In this document: one piece after another, positions 5,875-42,983 of the stretch
Position numbering within the stretch: the stretch's first letter is position 1
Layout of the letters: every line of letters begins with the position of its first letter
Assembly: GCA_000146045.2 (NCBI GenBank)
Contig: BK006949.2
Span: 768,001 to 832,000, forward strand
Reading direction: 5' to 3'
Source of the DNA: TPA_inf: Saccharomyces
Lineage: Eukaryota
DNA: 64,000 nt
Made by a program: the position numbers and the translations under genes
Notes under the pieces: generated by a model
Databases searched by the model: none
Told to the model about the DNA's origin: nothing
Seen by the model: the letters and a program-made list of their open reading frames with translations, nothing else

Positions 5875-7182
5875 CTACTTAAGATTAAATAGATTTTGAA
5901 AGTTGCTATGCATTTCGGATGTACACCACTTGAAAGTTTGGAAATAAACAGAGCCATACCTTGGTTTCTTGTACTTCAAAATCAATGAATCTAAATGAGT
6001 TTTGGAACTAGCGATGTCTTTGACTAGATCAATGCAGAGAGACTGAAACGCTTCATCGTGTATTGGATCGATACCACCACTGTAATGCTGTAGTGTTCCA
6101 TTCCATAGCTCGTTCTTGTTTCTGTTGGTCATTCTTCTCGCTATATACATTGCCATTGCGCTTACGGTAGATGGAGGTAAATGAATGAATTGGTGGCAGC
6201 AGTAGGCATACTCTAAAATAAACTTACCAATATTTCTATTAACCGGATCGTAATCATCTGCCTTGGAGATCCTCCTTAGGAAATTGAGTGGGTTGGGCCA
6301 ACCAATGTTGAATTCTAAGGAAGTGAGCATGAACATTTCCGCATTTTTTATGTCGTTTTTAGAAGCCGCGCCGTCAGTGATATAAGCGTATTCAGCTAGT
6401 TTGGGCAAATTTACCTCTTCAAATTTTGCCGCGATGAAAAGTGAGGTAACTGCCAATAATTGTAACTTGTTCATCGTAACTTTATTTTTAGCTAAAAATC
6501 TATCCATTAAGTTTATGGATAGGAATAACGTTTCCGGATAGCATTGAAATTTTTCGTGCACCTCTACCAGCCAATCCACTAATATTGTTCTCATGGAAGG
6601 CCTCAAATAATACTTGGACGTTTTGTCGAGTAAATAGTTGTGCGATGGTAACGTTTCTAATTCTCTTCTATATAAAAATGCAAAAATTTCAGCAGAATAT
6701 TCTGCTACCATTGCAGTATCATCTTTTTCAACATAATCTAGGTCCTGCCAGCCTACTATTTCACTCACTCCTTCAGCGTCTATTCTGCGTTTTTTGTTCA
6801 CTATCGAAGCAGCATCATCATCTTCTCCTTCTTCTTCTTCTTCTTCTTCTTGCTCTGCTGCCGTTCGATCGTTATATATCTGTCTTTTTTGAACGGCGCT
6901 AACAATAGGTCTAATGTTTTCTTCTCTTCGTACTTTGGCCGCCTTGCTCCCTGCTACTATTCTCTTGTTCTGGCTTAAAGGATTATTGTTCACTGGTACA
7001 TCTGTTAAAGCCCTTCTTGGTTTAGAATCCTGAACCTGCTGCTTACTAGAGCTGTCATTTTTTGAAAGGGCCCTTTTATTTTGAAGAATCTTTAGGTTTG
7101 AATTGCACAACTGCCTCTCATTTTCATTATAAATCATAGAATTTCTTTTAATACTCTGCTCATGGTCGTGGTTCTCTCCCAT
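5875..7182 (-). CDS. CLB5: S-phase B-type cyclin (435 aa)
   Basis: 435-aa ORF, cyclin box (LVDWLVEVHEKFQCYPETLFLSINLMDRFL), poly-Glu/Asp acidic tract; convergent with CLB2. Confidence 0.92.
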   Translation of the reverse strand: MGENHDHEQSIKRNSMIYNENERQLCNSNLKILQNKRALSKNDSSSKQQVQDSKPRRALTDVPVNNNPLSQNKRIVAGSKAAKVRREENIRPIVSAVQKRQIYNDRTAAEQEEEEEEEGEDDDAASIVNKKRRIDAEGVSEIVGWQDLDYVEKDDTAMVAEYSAEIFAFLYRRELETLPSHNYLLDKTSKYYLRPSMRTILVDWLVEVHEKFQCYPETLFLSINLMDRFLAKNKVTMNKLQLLAVTSLFIAAKFEEVNLPKLAEYAYITDGAASKNDIKNAEMFMLTSLEFNIGWPNPLNFLRRISKADDYDPVNRNIGKFILEYAYCCHQFIHLPPSTVSAMAMYIARRMTNRNKNELWNGTLQHYSGGIDPIHDEAFQSLCIDLVKDIASSKTHLDSLILKYKKPRYGSVYFQTFKWCTSEMHSNFQNLFNLK

Positions 7183-7600: not shown

Positions 7601-7764
7601 GTTCTTTTCACTGAGGGCACAGAATATGATACCCACAGTATGACAAGTTTTAATCGAGATAGTTTGACGTTCGTTTTTTACTTTGAATATACTCGTAGTC
7701 TTTTTACTTTTTGAGTATAAAAAAAAAATGACTAGCAAAATAAAATTAGTAGTCTAAAAAAGAA

Positions 7765-7836
7765 AGCTCGCACTCAGGATCGAACTAAGGACCAACAGAT
7801 TTGCAATCTGCTGCGCTACCACTGCGCCATACGAGC
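7765..7836 (-). tRNA. tC(GCA): tRNA-Cys (GCA)
   Basis: Reverse complement GCTCGTATGGCGCAGTGGTAGCGCAGCAGATTGCAAATCTGTTGGTCCTTAGTTCGATCCTGAGTGCGAGCT; 72 nt, anticodon GCA. Confidence 0.9.
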
Positions 7837-8092
7837 TTTTGAATTATGGTAATTTTGATTATCCTAGAATGTTATATCTCAATATCTCAATATATTTTGG
7901 ACATCTATGAAACACCCATAAAGCAGCCGCTACCAAACAGACAAGATTCAGTATGTAAGGTAAATACCTTTTTGCACAGTTAAACTACCCAAACTTATTA
8001 AAGCTTGATAAATTACTGAAATTCCACCTTTCAGTTAGATTCAGGCCTCATATAGATTAGATATAGGGTACGTAACATTCTGTCAACCAAGT

Positions 8093-8415
8093 TGTTGGAA
8101 TGAAAGTCTAAAATGTCATCTATTCGGTAGCACTCATGTTACTAGTATACTGTCACATGCGGTGTAACGTGGGGACATAAAACAGACATCAAATATAATG
8201 GAAGCTGAAATGCAAAGATCGATAATGTAATAGGAATGAAACATATAAAACGAAAGGAGAAGTAATGGTAATATTAGTATGTAGAAATACCGATTCAATT
8301 TTGGGGATTCTTATATTCTCGAGAGAATTTCTAGTATAATCTGTATACATAATATTATAGGCTTTACCAACAATGGAATTTCGACAATTATCATATTATT
8401 CACCAATTAATCACA
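8093..8415 (+). mobile_element. Diverged solo delta (Ty1/Ty2-family LTR)
   Basis: Starts TGTTGGAATGAAAGTC; contains GGAAGCTGAAATGCAAAGATCGATAATGTAATAGGAATGAAACATATAAAACG...GTAGAAATACCGATTCAATTTTGGGGATTC...CAACAATGGAATTTCGACAATTATC, collinear with delta consensus; about 257 bp upstream of tRNA-Cys. Confidence 0.7.
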
Positions 8416-9111
8416 AGTTGGTAATGAGTTTGATAACAAGTTACTTTCTTAACAACGTTAGTATCGTCAAAACACTCGGTTTTACTCGAGCTTGTAGCAC
8501 AATAATACCGTGTAGAGTTCTGTATTGTTCTTCTTAGTGCTTGTATATGCTCATCCCGACCTTCCATTTTTTTTTTCTTGGAATCAGTACATAGCAGGTA
8601 TGAGTTGTTAGAGCTGTTACAAGTTACGGTAAACATTTCAACACACCGTTATTTAACGAATTTATTTGAGAAAGTGGTGTATTTTAAGATATATGTTTGG
8701 TTTCGATTGTTGGCAAAGACTATAATATTATGCATATAGGATATACCAAAAATTCTCTCTGAGGATATAGGAATCTACAAAATGAATCTACATTTCATTT
8801 TATTACGTCATATATGAATACTAGTCAATAGATGATAGTTAATTTTTATTCTAGCATATATTTAAGTTTGTTTGCGAAACCCTATGCTCTGTTGTTCGGA
8901 TTTGAAATTTTAAAACTACATTAATGTGTTAGTTTTTCTTTCTTTCTTTCTTTGTCTTGACGTGATTTGGACTTCTGTCTTGCATTCGCGTCCATTCATC
9001 TGACCCAATATTCCTTTTGGTTTTGTTATCCTTATAAAAAGAAAGGAAGCTTCTTAGAGGGAAAAAAATGATGAAGAGTAATGCCAAAATATAAATAAAT
9101 AAATAAATATG

Positions 9112-9566
9112 AAAATCATTTTCTATTTTTAATAGAATAAGAAGAGCATCTTAAGATTACAATTTCAAGAAATAGTTTACACAGTATATCCAATAACTCC
9201 AATAAACTACTTTCCTATACAAATTTCTATGGTGGGATTAATAGTAAAACTTCTGTACTTCTCTAATTCACCAAGAAATTAAGGTAAACATCTGGTAAGC
9301 ACTATCCAGCTTTTTGCTATTACACATATGGCTTTTCTGCAATCATTTCTTCCCATTTTGTCTCAAGCCGTTAGTCTTGAAACCACAGGCGGAGTAGAGT
9401 TACTTGATGCGGTATTTTACATGCCTTTTTTCACTGCAAAAAAAATGAAATACATATTTACACGATTTGCAGGACAGTTTACGATAGTGAGTATGCAGAA
9501 TAGTTAACACCTTTGTTTTATCCTTTTGTGTCTTAATTATATGATATAAAGGCGCCTGGCGTTATC
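9112..9566. repeat. Direct repeat copy A (~455 bp), partner at 13547-14006
   Basis: About 88-90% identical over ~450 bp to 13547-14006 (e.g. AATAGTTTACACAGTATATCCAATAACTCCAATAAACTACTTTCCTATACAAATTTC...GGTAAGCACTATCCA...TTTTCTGCAATCATTTCTTCCCA...CCTTTTGTGTCTT.ATTATAT.ATATAAA.G.GCCTGGCGTTA). Confidence 0.8.
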
Positions 9567-9859
9567 GGATAGTAATAGATGCTAGTTATCAACATTTCAC
9601 AATTGAAGGAAATAAAGTTGAAGTACTCAACAAAAACTTACTTCAGAATTAAATTTTTGGGGGGAACATAGGCATCCTATGACAGGTGACCACAAGCCCC
9701 TCAACGCAATCTAATATTTTACAAAGTGGTAAAATTCTTTCGTTCTTCGTTTTAATATACAGTCATTTATTGATTCTATTACATTAATATTCCTACGCTT
9801 CGGCTCACATAATTAACAGGACTTCGAGTCCGTTAAACTTGGGATCAACTAATTTCTAC

Positions 9860-10140
9860 GGATTAGTGCTTATGCCTGATGTACTGCCATATATGGTGTT
9901 ATGATATCACATAAATGACGAGAAACGGCCATCGAATTTAGTGGAAGCTGAAATGTAAGGATTAATAATGTAATAGGATAGTAAGTGCCGACGTGTGAAA
10001 CGAAAGAACGAATTGTAATTTTACCATGTAAAGCTGCCCACTCTTTTTTGGGGATTCCTTTACCTACGAGAGGGCCTGTTAGAATATATGCAATAAAGCC
10101 ATTCTTATCAGAGATAGACTCCAAACAACCACCTCAAAAC
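9860..10140 (+). mobile_element. Degenerate delta (Ty1/Ty2 LTR) fragment
   Basis: ATATGGTGTTATGATATCACATAAATGACGAGAAACGGCCATCGAATTTAGTGGAAGCTGAAATGTAAGGATTAATAATGTAATAGGATA matches delta ATATACGGTGTTAGAAGATGACGCAAATGATGAGAAATAGTCATCTAAATTAGTGGAAGCTGAAACGCAAGGATTGATAATGTAATAGGAT; boundaries approximate. Confidence 0.55.
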
Positions 10141-10582
10141 CCACTTTTTCCTCAAGTCTGCCTAAACTCAAAAATTATATGATAGATGTTCTCAGGAGAA
10201 TTGGGTATTCAGAAGAACATTCGTAAGACAGGCCAAAGTAATATGAACTGCCTCTGCTTAATGGAATAACGTGATTTTTGTACCAAATTGCCTATTTCAG
10301 ATTCGGCGTGCGCTTCCTTTATTCGCATAGCACGCAGAGTACAATGTGGCATTAAACCCTATTGTCCTGCACGGAAGATCCTTGCAGGAATCAAATACTG
10401 CCTTTCACTTTGCAACCTCTTAATCACATAGTAGCACCTATAGACACGTATTCTATTCTCTATTATAATGTTGTTCAAGATTGGATATTGGAAACCTTTA
10501 GAGCAGTGCAATTTGGCAAGAGATAATTCCAGTATTTAAACAGTGGATAAATATACAATTTCCAAAGCAGTATGCCTTTCCT

Positions 10583-12301
10583 ATGGTTATCATCCTCCTA
10601 GGTCTTTGCACATTAGGTTTTCCAAGAACAGCATTCTGTCCCTCCATAATGACAAATTCTACAGTGAGTATTAACACGCCTCCACCATATCTTACTCTAG
10701 CTTGTAATGAAAAATTACCAACAGTTATGTCAATTGCTGGATCAGACTCAAGTGGTGGAGCCGGTGTTGAAGCTGATATTAAGACTATCACCGCACACAG
10801 ATGTTATGCCATGACATGCGTCACTACTTTGACTGCTCAAACTCCAGTGAAGGTGTACGGCGCTCAAAATATACCAAAGAAAATGGTATCTCAAATATTA
10901 GACGCCAATTTACAGGACATGAAATGTAATGTTATTAAGACTGGCATGCTTACGGTGGATGCAATCGAAGTCTTGCACGAAAAACTTTTGCAACTTGGTG
11001 AAAATAGACCCAAGTTAGTAATTGATCCAGTTCTTTGCGCCGCTTCTGACTCTTCTCCAACTGGAAAGGATGTGGTTAGCTTAATCATAGAAAAAATTTC
11101 TCCTTTTGCCGACATTTTAACTCCTAACATTTCAGACTGTTTCATGTTACTGGGCGAGAACAGAGAAGTTAGCAAACTACAAGACGTTCTTGAAATCGCG
11201 AAAGACCTTTCTAGAATCACCAATTGCTCCAATATTTTAGTGAAGGGAGGCCACATTCCATGTGACGATGGAAAAGAAAAGCATATTACTGACGTTCTTT
11301 ACTTAGGTGCTGAACAAAAATTCATCACTTTTAAGGGCCAATTCGTTAATACTACACGCACTCATGGCGCTGGATGCACACTGGCTTCTGCTATAGCATC
11401 TAACTTGGCTCGCGGTTATTCTCTTTCCCAATCTGTTTATGGTGGTATTGAGTATGTACAGAATGCCATCGCAATTGGCTGTGACGTTACCAAGAAAGCT
11501 GTGAAGGTTGGACCAATTAATCACGTTTACGCCGTAGAGATTCCATTAGAAAAAATGCTCACCGACGAATGCTTTACAGCATCTGATGCTGTACCTAAGA
11601 AGCCAATCGAAGGTTCTCTTGACAAAATCCCTGGGGGTAGCTTCTTTAATTATCTGATAAATCATCCTAAAGTCAAGCCGCATTGGGATGCCTACGTGAA
11701 TCACGAATTTGTTAAAAGAGTGGCAGACGGCACATTGGAACGCAAAAAGTTCCAGTTTTTTATTGAACAAGATTATTTATACTTAATTGATTATGTGAGA
11801 GTTTGCTGCGTCACAGGTAGTAAATCTCCAACTCTAGAAGATCTAGAAAAGGACCTTGTTATTGCTGATTGCGCCCGTAATGAACTAAATGAACATGAAA
11901 GAAGATTAAGAGAAGAATTTGGAGTTAAGGACCCAGATTACTTACAAAAAATTAAGAGAGGTCCCGCATTAAGGGCCTACTGTCGTTACCTAATTGACAT
12001 TTCCAGAAGAGGAAACTGGCAAGAAATAGTTGTAGCCCTCAACCCTTGTCTAATGGGTTATGTTTATGCTGTAGACAAAGTTAAGGATAAGATAACAGCA
12101 GCAGAGGGTTCTATTTATAGTGAATGGTGTGATACTTGCGCGTCTTCATTTTGCTACCAAGCTGTGCTTGAAGGTGAAAGGCTCATGAATCACATCTTGG
12201 AAACATATCCTCCAGATCAACTTGATTCTTTGGTGACGATCTTTGCAAGAGGTTGTGAATTAGAAACTAATTTCTGGACCGCCGCCATGGAATACGAATG
12301 A
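10583..12301 (+). CDS. THI22: HMP/HMP-P kinase with C-terminal TenA-like thiaminase II domain, thiamine biosynthesis (572 aa)
   Basis: 572-aa ORF; PfkB-type HMP-P kinase N-terminal (GSDSSGGAGVEADIKT) and TenA/THI-4 C-terminal half; THI20/21/22 family; synteny between CLB5 and AXL1. Confidence 0.85.
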   Translation: MVIILLGLCTLGFPRTAFCPSIMTNSTVSINTPPPYLTLACNEKLPTVMSIAGSDSSGGAGVEADIKTITAHRCYAMTCVTTLTAQTPVKVYGAQNIPKKMVSQILDANLQDMKCNVIKTGMLTVDAIEVLHEKLLQLGENRPKLVIDPVLCAASDSSPTGKDVVSLIIEKISPFADILTPNISDCFMLLGENREVSKLQDVLEIAKDLSRITNCSNILVKGGHIPCDDGKEKHITDVLYLGAEQKFITFKGQFVNTTRTHGAGCTLASAIASNLARGYSLSQSVYGGIEYVQNAIAIGCDVTKKAVKVGPINHVYAVEIPLEKMLTDECFTASDAVPKKPIEGSLDKIPGGSFFNYLINHPKVKPHWDAYVNHEFVKRVADGTLERKKFQFFIEQDYLYLIDYVRVCCVTGSKSPTLEDLEKDLVIADCARNELNEHERRLREEFGVKDPDYLQKIKRGPALRAYCRYLIDISRRGNWQEIVVALNPCLMGYVYAVDKVKDKITAAEGSIYSEWCDTCASSFCYQAVLEGERLMNHILETYPPDQLDSLVTIFARGCELETNFWTAAMEYE

Positions 12302-12924
12302 TAGTTACAATATTTTTAACAGAATATATAAAATACATATACAGAAATGATAAACTATAAACGCAAAAGATTAGCGATACGAAAAAAGGATTTCTCGCTA
12401 TTATATCAATTTATAAAGAGATCCTTTGGAAATATAAATTATGTTCATTTCATTTTTTCAACTTCTAGAAGGATGACTAACTATTGTTTCCATTTGCTAG
12501 CATGGTAAATTAATACATTTTTGAATTTGCTGCTAGGGTACAATACCATGCAATGTTTATAATATAAATCAAAGTGACAGAGATTCCTAAAAGCTAAAAC
12601 AAATCCATTGATAATATAATAGTAGGTTGGTCAATTCACCGCAGATTCAATGTAAGTATTGATACTCCATAAATGTTAACTTCAGGTTGATATTCGTTAC
12701 AAAAATCTTAGTTTGCTTTTCATTACTATCTGAACGGAATGCTCAACATTTTTCTTATTCTACAATTGTACAATGTCACGTAAACAGTTTGATTTGTGTA
12801 TTTACAGTGGAAACATTTTACTTGTTGGCAATAGTACATGCGCAGATAATCAAAAACCATTGTTTCCGACATTATTTCTGACAATTGCTTGAATTTGCTG
12901 AACACTTTTCGAGGTACATTCTGA

Positions 12925-13240
12925 TAAAGAGTGCATTATTAGTTATTTAGAGTATATTAAGACATCTTCTCGAAGATATATAAATTCGTAAAGGAAACAA
13001 AAATTTCGGGATAACAAAAAAGTTTCTTCTTTTTACGTATTAAATGGTCTATTCATCGATCCTATTTCACTATCAATCCTATTATATTATCAACTTTTGC
13101 ATTTCTGCTTCCACCAAAGTCGACGGCTGTTTCTCATCGTTTATGTAATATCATAACGCATGTATGACATTATATCAGTGGCATGAGCGCTAGTCCATGA
13201 AATAGGAGTTTAACTCCAACATACGGAACATTCGCATTAT
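12925..13240 (-). mobile_element. Old, diverged solo delta-like LTR remnant (minus orientation)
   Basis: GATCCTATTTCACTATCAATCCTATTATATTATCAACTTTTGCATTTCTGCTTCCACCAAAG... collinear with reverse-complemented Ty1 LTR at 36820-36978 (GATCCTATTACATTATCAATCCTTGCGTTTCAGCTTCCACTAAT...); ends ..TTTAACTCCAACA; boundaries approximate. Confidence 0.45.
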
Positions 13241-13546
13241 CGCACACGTAAGACTCGATATATTAAGGAAGGAATTTCCGAGTTGGATTAATAAAGGAAA
13301 AATAAAATATAGTGTTGGAAATATAGTTGCCTCAGAATAATATCAATATAATATTAAAACGTATATAGTTAGATACCCGGTATTATTCGAGTACGCATTA
13401 ATTCAGCAGTATGACTTTCTGTGCCTGCTTATATATTGTAACCGTATGTTGTTCTACCTTAAAAATTTGCTAAATTGAAGGAATTGACTATCGTCACTGA
13501 AGAGTATTCGTATTATGGTATTATGATACATTGTCTAAAAAAAGGA

Positions 13547-14006
13547 TACCATTTTTCTTCAATAGAACAAGAAGAGAATCTAAGGACACCATTTCGAGAA
13601 ATAGTTTACACAGTATATCCAATAACTCCAATAAACTACTTTCCTATACAAATTTCCGATGGTTGGATTAATAGTAAAACTTCTATACTTCTTTCATCCA
13701 TCAAGAAATTAAGGTAAACATCTGGTAAGCACTATCCAACTTTTTTCTGTTACACATATGGTTTTTCTGCAATCATTTCTTCCCACTTTGCATGAGTAAG
13801 TGTCCCATTTTGTCTCAAGCCGTTAATCTTGAAACCGCAGGCGGAGTTACTTGATGCGGTATTTTACATGCCTTTTTTCACTGCAAGAAAAAAATGAAAC
13901 ACTTATTTACACGATTTTCAGGATAGTTTACGCTGGTGAGTATGCAGAACAGTTAACACCTTTGTTTTATCCTTTTGTGTCTTGATTATATAATATAAAT
14001 GTGCCT
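13547..14006. repeat. Direct repeat copy B (~460 bp), partner at 9112-9566
   Basis: See copy A; copy B carries an extra ~22 bp local duplication (TCCCACTTTGCATGAGTAAGTG) and ends about 40 bp upstream of the AXL1 ATG. Confidence 0.8.
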
Positions 14007-14044
14007 GGCGTTAAAAAATAGCAACTGAATAAGTTTTTTTACTG

Positions 14045-17000
14045 ATGTCCTTGAGAGAAGTAACTAATTATGAAGTCTCGTTTTACATCCCGTTGTCTTA
14101 CAGCAACAGGACTCATAAAGTTTGTAAACTGCCAAACGGAATTTTAGCATTAATAATATCGGATCCAACAGATACTTCAAGCTCATGCTCACTGACTGTT
14201 TGCACAGGTTCCCATAACGATCCAAAGGATATTGCCGGTTTGGCGCACCTTTGTGAGCACATGATTCTTTCTGCCGGTTCCAAAAAATACCCTGATCCTG
14301 GTTTATTCCACACACTAATCGCAAAAAACAACGGCTCTCAAAATGCCTTTACCACAGGGGAGCAAACGACTTTTTATTTTGAATTGCCCAATACTCAAAA
14401 TAACGGCGAATTTACATTTGAATCTATCTTAGATGTGTTTGCCTCATTCTTCAAAGAACCGCTCTTCAACCCTTTACTGATAAGCAAGGAGATATATGCA
14501 ATACAAAGTGAGCATGAGGGAAACATATCATCAACCACAAAAATATTCTACCACGCAGCAAGAATATTGGCCAATCCCGACCATCCTTTCAGTCGCTTTT
14601 CCACTGGGAACATACACTCGTTATCTAGCATTCCACAACTGAAAAAAATAAAACTAAAGAGCTCATTAAACACTTACTTCGAAAATAATTTTTTTGGGGA
14701 GAATATAACCTTGTGCATAAGGGGACCGCAGTCTGTTAATATTCTTACGAAACTAGCTCTATCAAAATTTGGCGATATAAAACCCAAAAGCGCTGTAAAG
14801 GAAAGGAGTATATCGATTAGGACGAGGTCATTTCGAAGATCGAAGTCTTTAAAAAAACGCCAAGATTCTTCCAAAAACGACTACAGTGACTTGAAAACCT
14901 TTAAAATACTGAACACAACGTGGGAAAAAAAATACAAAAATACGATGTGTTTTCAACAATTTCCTGAATGCAATTCGATATTTATCAATTCAAATAAGGT
15001 ACCTATAATGAGACTTCTCTTTCCTGTTAGCGATAAAAACACTCGGTTTACAAAGGATGACATTAAAATATACAGTCATCTTTGGTGTGAACTTTTCGGC
15101 GATGAGTCTCCAGGATCTTTGAGCTATTACTTAGCTTCAAAAGGCTGGCTCACAGGCTGTTTTGCCTTTACCTCAGAATTCGCTATTGGTGACATAGGAT
15201 TAATTTTGGAATTAGAACTGACAAACAGTGGCTGGGAAAATATTAAGAGAATTACGACAATAGTACTTAATAGACTCTTGCCTTCCTTTTACGTAATGAA
15301 CATCGATTACTTAATCACTTTTTTGAAAGAACAGAATTTGATCGACCTCGTTAGCTTTCTGTACCAAAGTTCAGAGGATCTTCCAATGGAAGAGTGCTCA
15401 AAATTAAGCGGTATTCTTCAGGACGATTTAGAATGTTTAACCCCCCCTAATATATTCAAAGGATTTAAATCTCTTATAGAAATAGATGATCCCAACATCG
15501 AAAAATATGAAAACACAAAGGCCAATATACAATGGTGGACAGGGCAAGCTATTAAGTTCCAAAATTTTTTAAAATCTTTCATGAATCATGACAACATGCG
15601 CCTTTTACTCTTAGGGAATATAAAATCTGGTAATATATTTGATAAAATGAAAAATAAAAGTGATATATGCACCGATTTTTTCTATGAATTTGAGTATTAT
15701 ACGGCAAACGTTCATCTAGCAAGTGATAATAAATTTCATTCAAACAGCTCGTATGAATTTAATTTTCCCACAGGTAATCTTTTTTTACCAGATTGCGTCA
15801 GCGATCCTTTAAAACTACAACAGCTCTTCTTAGAATGCTCGTTAAAATCGAAATTTGCTACGCTTAGACCTCAAATTTATAGTGAGCCCACTAGGACAAA
15901 GCCTCAATTAGTCAGTGAGAACCAGAATTATGAGATGTGGATCTTAAAAGAAGACCCAAATTTTGCCTCAGACAATAAATCCGTCGTATCATTTGAAGTT
16001 TTGGGGTTAGGCATCAAACCTAGTCCGGAGGCAACAATCCACCTGGAAGTACTAGCACAGGCATTATTTATCATCACCTCTTCATTCCTTTATCCCGCTC
16101 TGAGAATTGGTTACACATATGAGATTGCCTCATCTAGTAAGGGCAACGTAACACTGCGATTTACTATTTCTGGATTCCCTGAGGGTGTTTTCACAATAGT
16201 AAAGACGTTCGTGGATACGCTAAAACTTATTGCAACAGATCCAACGTTTCTTTCTAAAGATACCTTGAGAAAGGCAAGGATTTTAGTTAGAAATAAATAC
16301 AAGAACGCGTCATCGGACAACTGCGTGAAGCTAGCTAGCGTTGGATTGCTGATTGTTTTAGAGAAATATATATGGACTTTAGAGGATAGAATTAATGCAT
16401 TAGAGCTTACCGAGTTGGAATCCTTCGAAAAATTTTGTTTTTTATTCTGGAGGAATCCTAAACATTTGGTCTTGTTCATGCAGGGAAGCCTTGAATATGC
16501 TGACGCAATCAACCGTTACTTAAATAACAATTTTACGCAGCACCTAAAAATCAGCAATGAAGGGAGCAAACCGACCATACGTCTCTACCCTCCTCCCAGT
16601 ACAAAAGATCTAGATCAAGGCACAAATGCCTTTATATCATATAATGGTCACCAGGATGATCCCAACAATAGTATTGTGTATTTTATTCAGACTGCACAAA
16701 GAGATGACATCAAAAATCTGACACTAACCTTTCTTACCGAATATCTATTTTCACTAACGCTAGTGCCTGATCTAAGAAATAAAAAGCAAATTGGGTACAT
16801 TGTTTTGGGAGGACTCAGGGTTTTAACAGACACTGTTGGGATTCATATAACCGTAATGTCTGGCAGCTCGGGGCACAATCTGGAAACTAGGATCAATGAG
16901 TACTTATCTTACTTGCAGCTGCAGGTGCTAAATAGATTCACCGAGTTTGATTTTCGAAGGATACTTCTAGAGCCGTTCTTAAATCTTTTAAAACAGAACA

Positions 17001-17671
17001 GTACGAAACAGTTTGAAGGGTCGGCTGGTCCTGTAGACCTATTAAATGAGATAGTGGCAAATGTGCAAAATGGTGATAATTACACTCTCAACAATAAACA
17101 AATGAGACAACATAGGAAGGTAAGAAATAAAATTGCGGAAGGAAGGCTTAATTTTCAAGAAGATCATGAAATGATTGATATCTCATTTTTGCAAAAATTA
17201 ACTCTAAAGAAATATTTAGCATTCTTCGAGTCCAAAATCTCTATATATTCCGCTCAAAGAAGTAAGCTATCAATAATGATCACAAGTCCAATGGCAGAGA
17301 AGGAAATTGCAAGCAGGAAAATGTTCCTTCAGCTAGAGGCCTTTCTGAAAATAAACGGATTCGCCATAAAAAATGAAGACTTGAAGAAAATTGTCGAACA
17401 TTCAAAGGGAAATCCTATTTTACTTGTAAAGAACCTTTTTACTTATTTTCGTAGGAGAAATGAAGTTTTCAAGCTCGGAACCGTTGTATTGCAGGAAATA
17501 TTGAAAATCATCGGAATGAATCTTAAGCAGAGATACGGCTCTATATTAGGGTTTTCTTCCCAAGATGGTGAAGGACAAGAAATAGAAAAATTTTGGAACA
17601 ACGACACAAGTCCGATTGTTCCTCTTCAGGAGCTTCCTGAACCAAACTTTTTCCGCAAGGCCGCATTTTGA
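14045..17671 (+). CDS. AXL1: Insulin-degrading-enzyme-like M16 metalloprotease for axial budding and a-factor processing (1208 aa)
   Basis: 1208-aa ORF with inverted zinc-binding motif HLCEH near the N-terminus; synteny. Confidence 0.9.
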   Translation: MSLREVTNYEVSFYIPLSYSNRTHKVCKLPNGILALIISDPTDTSSSCSLTVCTGSHNDPKDIAGLAHLCEHMILSAGSKKYPDPGLFHTLIAKNNGSQNAFTTGEQTTFYFELPNTQNNGEFTFESILDVFASFFKEPLFNPLLISKEIYAIQSEHEGNISSTTKIFYHAARILANPDHPFSRFSTGNIHSLSSIPQLKKIKLKSSLNTYFENNFFGENITLCIRGPQSVNILTKLALSKFGDIKPKSAVKERSISIRTRSFRRSKSLKKRQDSSKNDYSDLKTFKILNTTWEKKYKNTMCFQQFPECNSIFINSNKVPIMRLLFPVSDKNTRFTKDDIKIYSHLWCELFGDESPGSLSYYLASKGWLTGCFAFTSEFAIGDIGLILELELTNSGWENIKRITTIVLNRLLPSFYVMNIDYLITFLKEQNLIDLVSFLYQSSEDLPMEECSKLSGILQDDLECLTPPNIFKGFKSLIEIDDPNIEKYENTKANIQWWTGQAIKFQNFLKSFMNHDNMRLLLLGNIKSGNIFDKMKNKSDICTDFFYEFEYYTANVHLASDNKFHSNSSYEFNFPTGNLFLPDCVSDPLKLQQLFLECSLKSKFATLRPQIYSEPTRTKPQLVSENQNYEMWILKEDPNFASDNKSVVSFEVLGLGIKPSPEATIHLEVLAQALFIITSSFLYPALRIGYTYEIASSSKGNVTLRFTISGFPEGVFTIVKTFVDTLKLIATDPTFLSKDTLRKARILVRNKYKNASSDNCVKLASVGLLIVLEKYIWTLEDRINALELTELESFEKFCFLFWRNPKHLVLFMQGSLEYADAINRYLNNNFTQHLKISNEGSKPTIRLYPPPSTKDLDQGTNAFISYNGHQDDPNNSIVYFIQTAQRDDIKNLTLTFLTEYLFSLTLVPDLRNKKQIGYIVLGGLRVLTDTVGIHITVMSGSSGHNLETRINEYLSYLQLQVLNRFTEFDFRRILLEPFLNLLKQNSTKQFEGSAGPVDLLNEIVANVQNGDNYTLNNKQMRQHRKVRNKIAEGRLNFQEDHEMIDISFLQKLTLKKYLAFFESKISIYSAQRSKLSIMITSPMAEKEIASRKMFLQLEAFLKINGFAIKNEDLKKIVEHSKGNPILLVKNLFTYFRRRNEVFKLGTVVLQEILKIIGMNLKQRYGSILGFSSQDGEGQEIEKFWNNDTSPIVPLQELPEPNFFRKAAF

Positions 17672-36455: not shown

Positions 36456-36644
36456 TTGTTAGAATGAAACTCTAACATGTTATCTATTTAGTAGTATGAA
36501 CGGAAGGATAAATAATCGAAATATTATTATGTAGAAATACCGATTCCATTTTGATTCTTATATTCTCGAGAGAACTTCTAGTATATCTGTATACATAATA
36601 TGATAGCCTTTACCAACAATGGAATCCCAACAATTATCGAATTA
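36456..36644 (+). mobile_element. Older, internally deleted solo delta interrupted by the Ty1 insertion; its last ~30 bp resume after 42567
   Basis: Starts TGTTAGAATGAAACTCTAACATGTTATCTATTTAG (same subfamily start as the 8093 element) and runs through GTAGAAATACCGATTCCATTTTGATTC...CAACAATGGAATCCCAACAATTATC; sequence after the Ty1 (TTCATCAAATACATCTC) resembles the delta tail. Confidence 0.6.
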
Positions 36645-37000
36645 TGAGAAATGGGTGAATGTTGAGATAATTGTTGGGATTCCATTGTTGATAAAGGCTA
36701 TAATATTAGGTATACAGAATATACTAGAAGTTCTCCTCAAGGATTTAGGAATCCATAAAAGGGAATCTGCAATTCTACACAATTCTATAAATATTATTAT
36801 CATCATTTTATATGTTTATATTCATTGATCCTATTACATTATCAATCCTTGCGTTTCAGCTTCCACTAATTTAGATGACTATTTCTCATCATTTGCGTCA
36901 TCTTCTAACACCGTATATGATAATATACTAGTAATGTAAATACTAGTTAGTAGATGATAGTTGATTTCTATTCCAACATACCACCCATAATGTAATAGAT

Positions 37001-40000
37001 CTAATGAATCCATTTGTTAGTTAATAGTTTAAATGTTTTTATCGGAAGAGGTTTTGTCATCACATCAGCAATGTTCTTCTTGGTCTCGATGTAGTATACG
37101 TATAGATTATTACCTGATACTTCATCTCTAAGTCTCATTGCCTTTGTGCCAAAAAATCTGTTTCTAAATTTCTCTTCATTTGTAGACTTAATTATACTGA
37201 TCGTTGATCTACTATCAGTAAGTAAGCCTTTAATAATTGGTTTCTTGTTAAGTTCTTGCACAAGGTGACTGAGGTTATTCAATAGCGGAATAGCTTCACT
37301 GACTGCGTGTATTTCTGCTTCTGTAGTTGAAGTGCATGTTAACGAAGCCTTTGTCGACTTTCCTCCAATCACTTTTCCGTTGAGTAGGAAAATGTTACCA
37401 ATTTGTGACTTGTAATATGGTTGGTTACCATATGAAGCATCGCTTATTGCGACTAGTTTATTATCTGGCTCGGTAGGTTTGTTTTTGTGCCATATCAGTT
37501 GTTTATCTCTAGTGTCCCACATGAATTGTATTAACTCATATGTCATGTCTAAAACTTGCCTAGAGGGGAATAGTATATGTTGAGCAAGTGTGTTGATGTA
37601 GTATAGTAAGTCAAATCTAAATTTATATCCAACATATGAAGCTAGACCAATCAACTTTTGCATTTCATGTACCTTCTCTTTGTATTCATCTTCATCTATT
37701 TCTAGTTCATCCTGGTCTATATAAAGACCTGGTTGACCTGGAGCGCTAAGTTTTCTTCCTTTTGGATTCAAAGGTACGTTTAATTTGGGTATTTTCTCAG
37801 TTAATGAGTTTTCCATACCTAATTTCATGTATTTACCTCTTTGATATTTGATTTCTAAGCCAAGTATGTCGTACTGAATTTCGTTATCACTTTCACCCAG
37901 ATTTATTATCTTTGTATCGTATTGTTTCTTGAGTGTTGTTATGATTTTCTTATTTGCATTTAAGTCTTTGCTGAACAATATCATATCATCAACGAATAAG
38001 CAAATTGTTACTTGACTATTCTTAAATACGCATGACCATCCACGAACTTCTTCCATACCACACTGTTTTATCAGGTATGATTTGATAGTTTCGTACCAGT
38101 TCGCTCCACTTTGTTTCAATCCATAATGTGATTTCTTCAAACGTATCAACTTATCATTCATTCCTAAATGTGGTGGAGGTCTTATGTATAATTCTTCTTT
38201 GATGTCTGCATACAAATATGCCGAAGATATGTCTAATTGTGTAATATAGTAGTTATTGTCTAATGCAAGTGACAGGGATGTCATCAACGCATAATGATGT
38301 ACAGTGTTGGATTGCATACCTGTATCGTACGTATCAGGATGCTGAATGTCACCTCTTGCAACAAATCTAGCTTTATGAGTTCCGTCACGTTTCTTGTTGA
38401 AGATAAACATTGAGTTTATTACTCTTTTAGGGTCTATTTCTTTTCTGTCATAATATTTGTCAGTGTCCCAAGTATTCATTTTCAATAGTTGGTTGACTTC
38501 TTTGTGGTATGCCTCGATATATTTTTCTTTTTCTTTAATATCTTTATTATAGGTGATTGCCTCATCGTATCGTAAGGTTGTCCGTATTGGTTTGATTGAT
38601 TTTACTGCTTTTACAGCTGCAATCAGGTGAATTCGTTTCTTCGATCTCGGAGGTTCTAAACTACGCATATTCTTAGTATTCCATGTGTCTCGTGATACCT
38701 TAATTTCAGTTTCATTATCTTCTAATGATCTTTTCTTACTGTTGATAGTAGTATAGGCATTAGAGTCACCAATACCACCCAAACTGGAATTAGTTTGATG
38801 AGAATTTATCGGTGGGAGTTCTTTAAATGGGTCAGGGAATTCGGTAGGAGATTCTGGAGGTAGATCAGGGAGTGGGAGATCAGCGATGATAGATTCCTCG
38901 GTATTCTGTTCAGAAACAGTAGTTGGCGTTTTGATAGGAACAATATTGTGCGATGAATTATTTTCCGGTGGAGAAGCATCGATTGAAGGTGAACGGTGTA
39001 TAATCCTTTTCTCAGTCTCTTGGTCACTTATCTGCGGAACAGTTTTGTTGTTGGTACCACCCGTACTGGATATTGGTACGTTTGTATGATTAGTCTCATT
39101 TTCACTGTACGAGTCTGAGTGTCTGAAATCTTTAGATTTACTGGCGTGCGACGACTCATGTGTGTTAGATTGGGACATGGGAGCAAGTAAAGGAACATTT
39201 AATTTATGCATACCACCCGAACCGGTACTCTCGATATTGGAAATTTGGGGGGTGCTAGATCTCTTCTTTGATGGAAGAATATTAGATTCAGATATGTTGG
39301 GGTCAACTTCTCTGGGTGCGCGAATATTGGTTTTAGAAACACGTTTCGAATCTTCAGTATGAGTTGACGGAGGTGTGGAATCGGTTGGACTCACAGCTTT
39401 TGAAAGGACATTTCTCGGTTGCTCAGGATGTAGTTCAATGTCGGATTGGAAGTCATGGTCAGATTCTATGTTAAGATCATTGGATTCTTGGATCTCATTT
39501 GACGCAATGAACGAATGATATGAAGCAGTTAAACGGTTTAAGTCTTCATCGAAAGTGAGTGCGTCGTAATTGAATTGATCTAATCTGGATTCCTTGCCCT
39601 GAAGAATAACATAGTTAGTTGTATCTACTGTCTTCTTTAAGGATGGAAGATAGATGATATATCCATAAGAGTTTCGAGACGGATGTAGAGCGTAGCCTGG
39701 GATGCCACGAGGATGTATTTTGGAGTTAGGGTTGTGATCATTGACGATAACAGGTTGACCGAAAGGTAACAAAGTACTGATATCAAGTCCTGCCAAGCCA
39801 GCATGTTGTCTTGCAGATTTTTTGCTTTTAGGTGAAGCTAGTGAATTTCTCACAATAGTAGAAAATTCGATTGCAGAGAACCATAAATGGTTCGGTAAAC
39901 CACTACATTGCAGTTGAGTACGGCAGTCATCTAATAAGGTACGGTTTAGCCGTTCAGCGACTCCATGTGCTCGGGAATCCGCTGTGGTTGTATAGCATGG

Positions 40001-42269
40001 AGTTATACCATTTTTTTCAAGGAATTTATGGAGAGTTCTGTTAGTATACTCAGAACCACGGTCCATTTGTATAACCAAGACACTGGCCTGAAACTGGTTT
40101 TTAATAAAAGCTAGTATCGTAGTAAAAACATCGAGGATAGAGTCCTCGCGACGGTCGTGTAATGGATAAACCCAACGGAATTTTGTTGTCTCATCAGTAA
40201 ATGAGATGAAATAGGATGGTGCACTTTTTGGTAGGTTGTGAACTGGACCAAATATGTCAGTATGTAGGTATTGAAAGGGTTCGTATGAATTTTGGTATTT
40301 TAGTCGTGAACCTTTGATATGTCTGTGTTTGGTGCTTTTGCCGATTAAACAATCAGGACATTGATAGTCAATAGCACTAGACCAGTCGACATCTGATTCG
40401 TTAAAATACGTGATGGTGTTATTTTTAAGTGAGTATCGAATTGTCTGTGCATTGGCATGCGCAAGCATTCGATGAATGAAAGGATAAGGATATTTGCGTG
40501 TACTTTCACTTGTATGGACATTATTGATGGTGGGTACGGAGATATTTGATGGAAGCAAGTACTTTTTAGATACCCAGTAAAAGTCTCCATATTTTACGAT
40601 AGGTGCAAGTACAGTGCCGTCAGACCGTTCTAAGACGTTTTTGGTAAAGCATGCTGTGATATCTACTGCAGCCAATTCATTCAAACTGAGTAAGTCATAG
40701 GCTATGTTAGGAGTGTGCAATACCTTTATTGATGTTTTGGTGTTGTCCTGGAAGTGAAATTGTAGGTCACCAATAGCGTTAATTGGTATATTTCTTTTTT
40801 GAGCATCAACTACGTTTATGTCAGGATTAGATGATGCTGAGTGTATGTGATGAGCAGATCTTATAAGGGTTCGTGATGCTCCTGAATCGAGAAGGAGGTG
40901 TCCAGGGAGTTCATCATCAGAATGATTAGTATGATTTACTGTAGATTCAGTAAGTTTCTGGCCTAAGATGAAGGTCGTGCTTATTGTTCAATTGAATCGG
41001 TTCAGTAGTTGATTTACTGATGGAATCGTTGTCCGTGCTGGGAGAGTTATTAGATGTGGATACATTGTGAGCCCTGGCTGTTTTCGATTTCGAATTATTT
41101 GTTTTTTGAGGATTCCGAGCTATAACTTTGGGTTTGGTTGTATTCGTATAGCTGCGAGAATCATTCTTCTCATCACTCGGATTTCTCCTGTAATTAGGTT
41201 TACTGTTTCTCGATCCCTGTTGTTCTTCATAAATAGCATGGATATCTAAGAACAGTTCAGCGACTGTCATATTTAGATGTCGATGACGTGTGTAGCGTAA
41301 AAATTTATATTCGCCAGATAGACCTCTCATAATTAATTGGCATGCGACCTTGTTATTGATATGAATGCCATTATTGTTCAGTCTGTCGATAATGTTTGTG
41401 ACTTTTGTTTCAAATGCATCTGCAGGTGTACTGCCATTATATTGCAAATTTGCCAGGGTCACAATGTCGTTTGCCTCTTGGGTATCAGATTGCATTTTTT
41501 CAATACTTTTGGAAAGAATTTTCATGATATCCGTATAATCAACGGATAGGATGTCTTTGACCCAGGTAGGTAGGAATTGAGAGGGAGCAAATATTTGAAA
41601 AGTGTTATACAAGAAGGTGAGTTCATCATCAGTGATCTGACGTACGGGTTTTCCGTTTACTGTCGGAATAATACCACCGAGATTCGAGTTTTGTAAAAAT
41701 TTGATGTATGTTTTAACCCAATTTGGAAAGTCATTAGGTGAGGTTAACATTGGTGGTGGTCTGACATATTTTTTAGTGGATGTCATATCAGAGTCCGCTG
41801 AGGATGAATCAGTAAATGTATTACCTGACTCAGGTGATGGAGTGCTCAGAGGCGTTCCAACTGATGATGGATACTGCGGAAACTGTGATTGTGGCCCAGG
41901 TGGAAAGTACATAGGCGACATTTGATAAGGTGTATACGGAATCATAGATGGGTGTCCGTAAAATGACCAACCAGATGGATTGGCTTGGTTTTGGGTCATC
42001 ATGCACTGCTGTGGGTACGGCCCATTCTGTGGTGAATGTGACTGAGCAGTTTGAGGAGAGGCATGATGGGGGTTCTCTGGAACAGCTGATGAAGCAGGTG
42101 TTGTTGTCTGTTGAGAGTTAGCCTTAGTGGAAGCCTTCTCACATTCTTCTGTTTTGGAAGCTGAAACGTCTAACGGATCTTGATTTGTGTGGACTTCCTT
42201 AGAAGTAACCGAAGCACAGGCGCTACCATGAGAAATGGGTGAATGTTGAGATAATTGTTGGGATTCCAT
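37001..42269 (-). CDS. TYB: Ty1 Gag-Pol (TYA-TYB) by +1 ribosomal frameshift at CTTAGGC (protease, integrase, RT-RNase H)
   Basis: Frameshift heptamer CTT-AGG-C on the minus strand at 40961-40967, just before the TYA stop; TYB frame open from there to 37001 with PR (DSGAS), IN (HHCC, DDE) and RT (YVDDM-like) motifs. Confidence 0.88.
40947..42269 (-). CDS. TYA: Ty1 Gag (TYA, 440 aa)
   Basis: [42 protein letters not shown]..., ATG inside the 5' LTR. Confidence 0.92.
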
Positions 42270-42675
42270 TGTTGATAAAGGCTATAATATTAGGTATACA
42301 GAATATACTAGAAGTTCTCCTCAAGGATTTAGGAATCCATAAAAGGGAATCTGCAATTCTACACAATTCTATAAATATTATTATCATCATTTTATATGTT
42401 TATATTCATTGATCCTATTACATTATCAATCCTTGCGTTTCAGCTTCCACTAATTTAGATGACTATTTCTCATCATTTGCGTCATCTTCTAACACCGTAT
42501 ATGATAATATACTAGTAATGTAAATACTAGTTAGTAGATGATAGTTGATTTCTATTCCAACAAATTATTCATCAAATACATCTCGATATCCATATTTTGG
42601 TTGCAAAGAAATAAATACCGGAGATATGATTCAGATGTGGAAGCGGTTTTAAAGTCCCAATTCATCATTATTTGC

Positions 42676-42749
42676 GACTCCATGGCCAAGTTGGTTAAGG
42701 CGTGCGACTGTTAATCGCAAGATCGTGAGTTCAACCCTCACTGGGGTCG
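42676..42749 (+). tRNA. tN(GUU): tRNA-Asn (GUU)
   Basis: GACTCCATGGCCAAGTTGGTTAAGGCGTGCGACTGTTAATCGCAAGATCGTGAGTTCAACCCTCACTGGGGTCG; 74 nt; Ty1 5' end lies 113 bp upstream. Confidence 0.9.
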
Positions 42750-42983
42750 TATTTTTTACTAAATTAGTTTTTTTTTAGGGAACAGACGTTAAGTTTTTTA
42801 ATATTATTATGGCATATAGAATGGTGAGTAAAAATACCAAATGATGAAATGAATTTGTTTTGTGAGTCTATGATAAAATGCAGAATATAAAATTAAAAAG
42901 TTCAGAAATAAATAAATAAAAAAAAATCTAGTATCGCGGCACTTCCGTTCAATGTGCCGACGAGCAGTTACTGGGGAGTTGAT

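What the first reader, a model, noticed from the sequence alone, without database searches (positions are those of the whole stretch)
9112..14006. THI22 locus bracketed by ~450-bp direct repeats
Two non-coding segments (9112-9566 and 13547-14006) are about 88-90% identical and in the same orientation. They enclose a ~4-kb block containing a delta fragment, THI22 and a reversed delta remnant. The repeats do not start TG or end CA, so they are not LTRs of any Ty family I recognise. Copy B carries private small duplications, so the pair is not very recent. THI22 belongs to the dispersed THI20/21/22 family, one member of which is subtelomeric. This architecture fits THI22 arriving as a mobilised or segmentally duplicated cassette. 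It would also let homologous recombination between the repeats delete THI22, so the gene may be presence/absence polymorphic among strains.
Basis: seen in the sequence. Interest (0 to 1): 0.55.

Follow-up and report, generated by a model that had tools for sequence, protein, structure and literature searches.

The report
Duplicated AXL1 promoter flanking THI22
The two ~450-bp direct repeats around yeast THI22 are real, but they are two copies of the neighbouring AXL1 gene's own upstream region (one attached to a dead AXL1 fragment), kept alike by gene conversion and able to loop THI22 out – an ordinary, well-understood kind of local rearrangement.

Summary
Copy A (9108-9575) and copy B (13541-14024) are direct repeats. 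They are 86% identical over 466 columns, or 92.8% ignoring gaps, and are the only two copies in the window.

They are not transposon ends. Copy B is the promoter and 5'UTR of AXL1 and ends about 20 bp before its ATG. Copy A is followed by a ~120-bp disabled relic of AXL1 codons ~192-231, so A is a dead partial duplicate of the AXL1 5' end. The relic abuts a Ty1 delta remnant.

- **S. paradoxus:** both copies and both relic junctions are shared.
- **S. mikatae, S. kudriavzevii, S. arboricola, S. uvarum/eubayanus:** each has one copy. S. mikatae already carries THI22, in inverted orientation.

The simplest reading is therefore that the duplication came after THI22 arrived. I cannot exclude an older duplication that S. 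mikatae later lost.

Within each species A and B resemble each other far more than their orthologues (61 sites against 1). This indicates concerted evolution by gene conversion.

A divergent S. paradoxus lineage, seen in two independent assemblies, has one mosaic A/B repeat and no THI22. That is the predicted pop-out allele. All four S. cerevisiae sequences examined keep THI22.

The cassette-arrival idea is not supported as stated. The deletion prediction is supported.

The parts
7764..7837 (-). tRNA-Cys(GCA). This Pol III gene makes the CLB5-AXL1 interval a Ty1 integration hot spot.
   Evidence: ARAGORN; Rfam tRNA 62.7 bits. It is conserved at the same position in S. mikatae, S. kudriavzevii, S. 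arboricola and S. uvarum/eubayanus.
8093..8413 (+). Old full-length solo Ty1 delta LTR.
   Evidence: aligns to positions 1-334 of the window's own Ty1 LTR at 72% identity.
8667..8856 (-). Solo delta with an internal deletion (delta 204-334 plus 1-45).
8857..9107 (+). Left flank of copy A. It is the ancestral neighbour of the AXL1 upstream region.
   Evidence: It is orthologous to the S. paradoxus flank. Its last 40-70 bp match the AXL1-proximal end of the single S. mikatae spacer. It is contiguous with the single repeat in L010.
9108..9575 (+). Repeat copy A, a duplicate of the AXL1 promoter and 5'UTR (about -490 to -12 relative to the AXL1 ATG).
   Evidence: It has a private 22-bp deletion and a 5-bp tandem duplication.
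9576..9700 (+). Disabled relic of AXL1 coding sequence (codons ~192-231). Codons 1-~190 are missing.
   Evidence: blastn 9582-9670 against 14617-14707: 76% identity, E = 1e-7. tblastn 17/35 residues identical, E = 7e-4, with in-frame stops. Left and right junctions are the same in S. paradoxus.
9703..10087 (.). Two Ty1 delta fragments: 9703-9823 (-) and 9844-10087 (+). They abut the AXL1 relic and lie just upstream of the THI22 block.
10154..12308 (+). THI21-derived duplicated block, comprising the THI22 promoter and CDS. The annotated CDS is 10583-12301; the conserved start codon is at 10649.
   Evidence: ORF. Homology to the S. mikatae THI21 and THI22 loci. Pfam PF08543 and PF03070 on homologues. 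Start codon comparison.
12309..12878 (+). THI22 3' flank. It is conserved with S. paradoxus only. The first ~70 bp are weakly THI21-flank-like.
12879..13179 (-). Reversed Ty1 delta remnants (delta 130-334 and 47-151), inverted relative to 9844-10087.
   Evidence: inverted repeat I1.
13180..13540 (+). Upstream flank of copy B. The stretch 13368-13516 is homologous to the delta-proximal end of the S. mikatae AXL1 spacer, so the flank|repeat-B boundary is a novel junction.
13541..14024 (+). Repeat copy B, the working AXL1 promoter and 5'UTR.
   Evidence: It is contiguous with the AXL1 ATG at 14045. Its proximal ~200 bp are conserved in every Saccharomyces species examined.
14045..17671 (+). AXL1 (1208 aa, M16 peptidase), the parent gene of the duplicated segment.
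   Evidence: ORF; homologues and Pfam PF00675/PF05193.

Best explanation
The repeats are two copies of the upstream region of AXL1. Copy B is the working AXL1 promoter and 5'UTR. Copy A is a partial duplicate of the AXL1 5' end: the promoter plus a fragment of coding sequence that has lost codons 1-~190 and is disabled.

The duplication arose once, in the Ty1-delta-rich, tRNA-proximal interval between CLB5 and AXL1. [quoted passage not shown] The right end of the relic abuts a delta remnant, so I infer a delta-associated unequal exchange or tandem duplication followed by deletions. That step is inference, not shown.

THI22 is a THI21-derived gained gene and was most probably already at the locus. 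It is bracketed by inverted delta remnants and differs in orientation between S. mikatae and S. cerevisiae/S. paradoxus.

Since the duplication, A and B have been repeatedly homogenised by intrachromosomal gene conversion. The same homology allows crossing-over that deletes the ~4.4-kb interval carrying THI22 and leaves one hybrid AXL1 promoter. This has apparently happened in one S. paradoxus lineage.
For: **Identity of the repeats**
- Copy B ends ~20 bp before the AXL1 ATG, and copy A is followed by an AXL1 CDS relic.
- The repeat unit is single-copy and directly upstream of AXL1 in S. mikatae (69% identity over 438 bp), S. kudriavzevii, S. arboricola and S. uvarum/eubayanus.
- There is no similarity to Ty1 delta and no Rfam hit.

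**Single ancient origin**
- S. paradoxus CBS432 (L013) has both copies and the relic, with identical left and right junctions.

**Concerted evolution**
- 61 sites group A with B within a species, against 1 site grouping orthologues.
- A/B identity is 92.8% in S. cerevisiae and 88.1% in S. paradoxus, against 73-78.5% between the two species.

**Pop-out allele**
- L010/L011 come from two separate sequencing runs. They carry A's left flank, one repeat whose informative sites run A-like and then B-like, then full-length AXL1.
- Their AXL1 CDS differs from CBS432 by 3.1%, while the aligned promoter-plus-5'-AXL1 stretch differs from S. cerevisiae by ~14%. The lineage therefore nests among carriers of the duplication.
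- No Thi22 protein from those runs is in the S. paradoxus Thi22 cluster, although AXL1, YLH47 and YPR127W proteins from the same contig are in the collection.

**THI22 history**
- THI22 is absent from the interval in three outgroup species.
- The S. mikatae gene shares 10 derived residues with the THI22 clade, and the NJ tree groups them with 84% bootstrap.
- The literature agrees (PMC10182736, PMC2675101).
Against: - The mechanism of the original duplication is not resolved. No single simple event converts the S. mikatae arrangement into the S. cerevisiae one. It needs the duplication, an inversion of THI22, and a ~500-bp deletion upstream of copy B.
- I cannot exclude that the duplication is as old as THI22's arrival and that S. 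mikatae later lost copy A.
- The pop-out allele rests on short-read assemblies whose strain identity is unknown.
- All four S. cerevisiae sequences examined retain THI22.
- The rest of the S. cerevisiae genome could not be searched for further copies of the repeat.
Confidence: 0.85

Rival explanations
1. The repeats are the result of THI22 arriving as a cassette. A delta-flanked THI21 copy inserted into the 5' part of AXL1, and repair duplicated ~1.1 kb of target (promoter plus the first ~700 bp of CDS) on both sides. S. mikatae later lost the upstream copy and inverted THI22.
For: - Copy A keeps the ancestral upstream flank and copy B the ancestral downstream gene, as expected for a duplicated target around an insert.
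- The relic abuts delta sequence.
- THI22 is a gained gene (PMC10182736).
Against: - S. mikatae has THI22 with a single, uninterrupted AXL1 upstream region (delta, spacer, repeat, AXL1). The segment upstream of S. cerevisiae copy B is homologous to the distal end of that native spacer, so it is local sequence and not part of an incoming cassette.
- This reading needs two extra steps in S. mikatae.
Confidence: 0.1
2. The repeats are terminal repeats of an unrecognised mobile element, or a composite transposon, that carried THI22.
For: They are direct repeats of LTR-like size that bracket a gene in a Ty-rich region.
Against: - No TG...CA ends.
- No similarity to the window's Ty1 LTR.
- Only two copies in 64 kb.
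- The unit is the single-copy AXL1 upstream region in four species.
- Copy A continues into AXL1 coding sequence.
- The THI21 locus of S. mikatae lacks the unit.
Confidence: 0.01
3. S. cerevisiae and S. paradoxus duplicated the AXL1 upstream region independently and recently. That would explain why A and B are more alike within each species than between species.
For: The 61:1 excess of species-grouping sites is what independent recent duplications would also give.
Against: Both species share all of the following:
- the same internal deletion junction (5'UTR joined to AXL1 nt ~572);
- the same relic end, followed by the same non-AXL1 sequence (ACGCAAT...);
- the same flanking delta fragments and the same left flank.

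Identical complex junctions arising twice is very unlikely.
Confidence: 0.03

Closest known systems
Gene relics / partial tandem duplicates in yeast intergenic regions (Lafontaine, Fischer, Talla & Dujon 2004, Gene 335:1, cited in PMC2822764)
   Same: A short, disabled fragment of a coding sequence sits in an 'intergenic' region next to its intact parent gene, left by a local duplication.
   Different: Here the relic carries a complete copy of the parent's promoter. That copy stays 86-93% identical to the working one through gene conversion. I could not check whether this particular AXL1 relic is already in the published catalogue.
Concerted evolution of duplicated segments by ectopic gene conversion (known in yeast from, for example, CUP1, subtelomeric families and ribosomal-protein paralogues; general knowledge)
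   Same: Paralogous copies are more alike within a species than orthologues are between species, even though the duplication predates speciation.
   Different: The converted tract is a ~450-bp non-coding promoter segment with only two copies, 4.4 kb apart. The adjacent relic does not appear to be homogenised.
Direct-repeat 'pop-out' deletion, as with solo-LTR formation from Ty elements or URA3 loop-out (general knowledge)
   Same: Crossing-over between direct repeats removes the intervening DNA and leaves one hybrid repeat. The L010/L011 allele has exactly that structure.
   Different: The repeats are gene-regulatory DNA, not LTRs. The hybrid product becomes the sole promoter of an intact gene (AXL1), and a whole paralogous gene (THI22) is lost.
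Ty/delta-mediated rearrangements at tRNA-proximal hot spots. Examples: the SK1 Ty1 insertion between CLB5 and THI22 (PMC3757047) and the S. boulardii 68-kb inversion with a breakpoint at chrXVI 776,149 (PMC13141078).
   Same: It is the same interval. Inverted delta remnants bracket THI22, and its orientation differs between species.
   Different: Those reports concern present-day polymorphisms within S. cerevisiae. The THI22 inversion and AXL1 partial duplication are fixed differences between species.

Membership tests
Ty LTR (delta/sigma/tau/omega) | TG...CA termini | tested here: not met
   Homology starts at ...CATTTTCTATTTTTAATAG and ends at ...CCTGGCGTTA. There are no TG/CA ends.
Ty LTR (delta/sigma/tau/omega) | Sequence similarity to a Ty LTR and dispersed multi-copy distribution | tested here: not met
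   A sensitive blastn with the window's Ty1 LTR gives no hit inside 9108-9575 or 13541-14024. There are only two copies in the window. Orthologous single copies lie upstream of AXL1 in four species. Only delta could be tested; no sigma, tau or omega reference was available.
Gene relic / partial duplicate of AXL1 | Significant collinear similarity to parent-gene sequence (promoter, then CDS) with a disrupted reading frame | tested here: met
   The promoter alignment has E = 3e-137. The CDS relic is 76% identical (E = 1e-7), with tblastn 17/35 residues and stop codons. It aligns with AXL1 of six species or lineages.
Gene relic / partial duplicate of AXL1 | Single ancestral event (shared junctions in a sister species) | tested here: met
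   The left and right relic junctions are the same in S. paradoxus CBS432.
Concerted evolution by gene conversion | Paralogues cluster by species although the duplication predates speciation | tested here: met
   61 species-grouping sites against 1 orthologue-grouping site, spread over the whole repeat.
Direct-repeat recombination (pop-out) allele | An allele with one hybrid repeat, both outer flanks intact and the interior missing, in a lineage nested among carriers | tested here: met
   L010/L011: the left flank differs from CBS432 by 8.9%; informative sites in the repeat run A-like then B-like; AXL1 is full-length. No Thi22 protein from those runs is in the S. paradoxus Thi22 cluster. The evidence is assembly-level only.
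Direct-repeat recombination (pop-out) allele | Presence/absence polymorphism within S. cerevisiae | tested here: inconclusive
   All four sequences (the window, L012, L014, L015) carry THI22. PMC5995190 lists THI22 among copy-number-variable genes distinguishing cheese strains, but gives no junctions.
Mobilised cassette / composite transposon carrying THI22 | The repeats travel with the cargo and are present at the donor or other loci | tested here: not met
   The S. mikatae THI21 locus (L004) and S. mikatae THI22 locus lack a second copy. Homology to THI21 is confined to 10154-~12380.

The most novel reading that the evidence does not exclude
Copy A may not be mere debris. It could be a retained second haploid-specific (a1-alpha2-responsive) promoter, kept functional by gene conversion. 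In that case it might drive a cell-type-regulated non-coding transcript through the relic and delta towards THI22, or impose AXL1-like regulation on THI22. The A/B pair would also act as a recurrent on/off deletion switch for THI22 in natural populations.
Probability: 0.08. Interest if true: 0.5.

Novelty: new member of a known kind. Interest (0 to 1): 0.3.

Why it matters
It replaces a speculative 'mobile cassette' reading with a concrete history. That history comprises a partial AXL1 duplication, a coding relic, concerted evolution of a promoter duplicate, and a natural recombinational deletion of a young paralogue.

The locus is a compact, datable example of how Ty-rich tRNA-proximal intervals collect gained genes and then reshuffle or lose them. 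It also gives exact junctions for genotyping THI22 presence or absence across strains.

It does not reveal a new kind of element or mechanism.

Tried and rejected
- **LTR identity.** Mapping the window's Ty1 LTR finds six delta fragments in the interval but none inside the repeats.
- **Structured RNA in the repeats.** Rfam at E <= 0.1 finds only the tRNA.
- **a1-alpha2 operator.** A scan with the consensus recalled from memory (TCRTGTNNWNANNTACATCA, up to 3 mismatches) hits both repeats (9446-9465, 13895-13914). The window total of 8 hits is no more than the 9.3 expected by chance, so I make no claim. PMC517709 confirms AXL1 as an a1-alpha2 target but prints no site sequence.
- **S. cerevisiae pop-out allele.** A metagenome scan with a left-flank 22-mer returned two contigs, both with THI22. 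One more NCBI strain also has THI22.
- **Single-step derivation of the S. cerevisiae arrangement.** I tried to derive it from the S. mikatae one through a delta x delta deletion. The flanks next to the delta termini at 8856 and ~13225 are unrelated, so that simple scenario is not supported (read from the sequences).
- **Homology of spacers with S. kudriavzevii, S. arboricola and S. uvarum.** The spacers are too diverged to be informative.
- **Literature.** No paper mentions THI22 together with AXL1, an AXL1 relic, or the two SRA runs.


Full report
**1. What the window is**

The ORFs and tRNA and the homologue names identify the region as S. cerevisiae chromosome XVI. The gene order is:
- CLB5 (5875-7182, -)
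- tRNA-Cys(GCA) (7764-7837, -)
- THI22 (10583-12301, +)
- AXL1 (14045-17671, +)

**2.

The repeat finder and blastn align 9126-9564 with 13554-14013 in the same orientation. Identity is 86.3% over 466 columns with 33 gap columns (E = 3e-137 against a 4.4-kb subject stretch, 2e-136 against the whole window). Counting substitutions only, identity is 92.8%. There is no third copy in the 64-kb window.

I used the window's own full-length Ty1 as a reference. It has two identical 334-bp LTRs, at ~36644-36977 and ~42228-42561. With it I mapped delta remnants at these positions:
- 8093-8413 (+)
- 8667-8856 (-)
- 9703-9823 (-)
- 9844-10087 (+)
- 12879-13179 (-)

None overlaps the repeats.

One detail is reversed. 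The 22 bp 'extra' in copy B is present in both S. paradoxus copies, so it is a deletion private to S. cerevisiae copy A. Copy A, not B, carries a 5-bp tandem duplication.

**3. What the repeats are**

Copy B ends about 20 bp before the AXL1 ATG. It is the AXL1 promoter and 5'UTR.

Directly after copy A, 9582-9670 matches AXL1 coding sequence 14617-14707 at 76% identity (E = 1e-7). In translation 17 of 35 residues match AXL1 residues 196-230, interrupted by stop codons. A multiple alignment with AXL1 of six species or lineages shows the relic spans roughly codons 192-231. It then continues into non-AXL1 sequence next to a delta fragment.

Copy A is therefore the remains of a partial duplicate of the AXL1 5' end. 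It has the promoter, a deletion from about -12 to +571, and ~120 bp of dead coding sequence.

No Rfam family matches the repeats.

**4. Comparative evidence**

I fetched the orthologous loci through THI22 and AXL1 homologues.

- **S. paradoxus CBS432 (L013; L001 is 99.8% identical).** It has copy A, the relic, delta, THI22, delta, copy B and AXL1 in the same order. The relic junctions are the same on both sides. The duplication therefore predates the S. cerevisiae / S. paradoxus split.
- **S. kudriavzevii (L006), S. arboricola (L007) and an S. uvarum/eubayanus contig (L008).** Each has CLB5, tRNA-Cys, delta, a single AXL1 upstream region and AXL1, with no THI22.
- **S. mikatae (L002).** It has a THI22 gene between CLB5 and AXL1, but in the opposite orientation. 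There is only one copy of the AXL1 upstream region, and that copy aligns with the whole repeat unit (69% over 438 bp).

The S. mikatae spacer upstream of that single copy is informative. Its AXL1-proximal end matches the left flank of copy A. Its distal, delta-proximal end matches the flank upstream of copy B.

Three things follow:
- Copy A keeps the ancestral upstream neighbour.
- Copy B keeps the ancestral downstream gene.
- The boundary upstream of B is a novel junction made of local sequence, not of incoming cassette sequence.

**5. Is the S. mikatae gene the same THI22?**

An NJ protein tree groups it with S. cerevisiae and S. paradoxus THI22 at 84% bootstrap.

Ten derived residues are shared with the THI22 clade, and all lie in the C-terminal third. 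The N-terminal two-thirds look homogenised with S. mikatae THI21. The DNA identities agree: S. mikatae THI22 is 82.9% identical to its own THI21 but 79% to S. cerevisiae THI22.

This fits the published dating of the THI21/THI22 duplication to the common ancestor of the three species (PMC10182736) and THI22's status as a post-WGD gained gene (PMC2675101).

THI22 homology to THI21 covers only about 10154-12380, that is promoter, CDS and a few tens of bp beyond. On both sides of the wider THI22 interval (10154-12878, which adds the 3' flank shared only with S. paradoxus) lie inverted delta remnants, and the S. mikatae gene is likewise flanked by inverted deltas. Delta-mediated recombination is the natural explanation for the difference in orientation. 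This is inference.

The most parsimonious order is therefore:
1. THI22 arrives on the stem of S. cerevisiae, S. paradoxus and S. mikatae.
2. The AXL1 5' partial duplication occurs, together with the inversion and a ~500-bp deletion upstream of B, on the S. cerevisiae / S. paradoxus stem.

I cannot exclude the alternative, in which the duplication accompanied THI22's arrival and S. mikatae later lost copy A. It needs more steps, and I give it about 0.1.

**6. Concerted evolution**

The junctions are shared between species, yet A and B resemble each other within each species far more than they resemble their orthologues. There are 61 sites of the pattern (ScerA = ScerB) differing from (SparA = SparB), against 1 site of the orthologue pattern. 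These sites are spread over the whole repeat.

| Comparison | Identity |
|---|---|
| A vs B, S. cerevisiae | 92.8% |
| A vs B, S. paradoxus | 88.1% |
| Between species | 73-78.5% |

Independent duplications with identical complex junctions are implausible. Repeated gene conversion is the explanation.

**7. The predicted deletion exists, in S. paradoxus**

An AXL1 variant (P0123) lies on identical contigs from two Logan assemblies, L010 and L011 (runs SRR10997048 and SRR34587153).

- These contigs start in the same delta as L001.
- They run through the orthologue of A's left flank (8.9% substitutions against CBS432).
- They then run through a single repeat straight into a full-length AXL1.
- At sites where CBS432 A and B differ, the single repeat is A-like on the left, mixed in the middle, and B-like over the right ~300 bp.

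The lineage is a divergent S. paradoxus. Its AXL1 CDS differs from CBS432 by 3.1% and its intergenic regions by ~6%, while the aligned promoter-plus-5'-AXL1 stretch differs from S. cerevisiae by ~14%. It is therefore nested among carriers of the duplication, so the single copy is derived.

The 90% cluster of S. paradoxus Thi22 holds only the CBS432 protein and the L001 protein. No member comes from these runs, although AXL1, YLH47 and YPR127W proteins from the same contig are in the collection.

An assembly collapse is unlikely, because a de Bruijn contig would normally break at a two-copy repeat. It can only be excluded with the reads.

In S. cerevisiae all four sequences I could examine keep THI22. 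They are the window, NCBI strain L012 and two metagenome contigs, L014 and L015. Legras et al. list THI22 among copy-number-variable genes separating cheese strains (PMC5995190), without junctions.

**8. Comparison with known things**

This is a gene relic or partial tandem duplicate of the kind catalogued in yeast intergenic regions. It combines three textbook features: concerted evolution, direct-repeat pop-out, and location in a documented Ty hot spot.

- SK1 has a Ty1 between CLB5 and THI22 (PMC3757047).
- S. boulardii has a 68-kb inversion with a breakpoint at chrXVI 776,149 (PMC13141078). That probably falls in the solo delta at 8093-8413, if window position 1 is 768,001 (offset recalled from memory).

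It fails every tested defining feature of an LTR or composite transposon.

**9. Verdict**

The deletion prediction holds. The idea that the repeats are cassette termini, and the age estimate, do not.
- The kind of feature is known, and this instance appears not to have been described in the literature I could search.
- Interest is modest, at about 0.3.

Noticed in passing
L002 9556-11663 (S. mikatae) compared with window 10154-12308: The S. mikatae THI22 orthologue sits between CLB5 and AXL1 in the opposite orientation to S. cerevisiae and S. paradoxus. In both arrangements it is flanked by inverted Ty1 delta remnants, which suggests a delta-mediated inversion.
   Followed up: partly
S. mikatae proteins P0004 and P0003 (L002 and L004): S. 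mikatae THI22 looks mosaic. Ten THI22-clade derived residues all lie in the C-terminal third, while the N-terminal two-thirds resemble S. mikatae THI21. This suggests gene conversion between the paralogues on different chromosomes.
   Followed up: partly
window 10583-10648: The annotated THI22 start (ATG at 10583, giving a 572-aa protein) is specific to S. cerevisiae. S. paradoxus has GTG there and S. mikatae has an in-frame stop. The conserved start is at 10649 (550-551 aa). The extra 22 residues (MVIILLGLCTLGFPRTAFCPSI) are hydrophobic.
   Followed up: partly
window 9397-9434 and 13844-13881: The block GAGTTACTTGATGCGGTATTTTACATGCCTTTTTTCAC is the best-conserved part of the repeat. It lies within the ~150-bp stretch still detectable in S. 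kudriavzevii, S. arboricola and S. uvarum/eubayanus. It may be a regulatory site of the haploid-specific AXL1 promoter. A consensus scan for a1-alpha2 sites was not above chance.
   Followed up: partly
window ~36644-42561: A full-length Ty1 with two identical 334-bp LTRs (so a recent insertion) lies on the - strand, just upstream of tRNA-Asn at 42675-42750.
   Followed up: no
window 9100-9600 compared with 13530-14050, in the window, L012, L014 and L015: Among four S. cerevisiae sequences, copy A has 5 polymorphic sites and copy B has 1. At 4 of the 5 sites in A, one allele equals the base in B. This fits a constrained B and occasional conversion, but the sample is too small to test.
   Followed up: partly
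window 8093-8413: Two published rearrangement points probably fall in this solo delta: the SK1 Ty1 insertion at chrXVI 776,100 and the S. boulardii 68-kb inversion breakpoint at 776,149. This holds if window position 1 corresponds to chrXVI 768,001, an offset recalled from memory and not verified.
   Followed up: no
L013 8914-9043 (S. paradoxus): The AXL1 relic is better preserved in S. paradoxus (~130 bp, 83% identical to its own AXL1) than in S. cerevisiae (76%).
   Followed up: no
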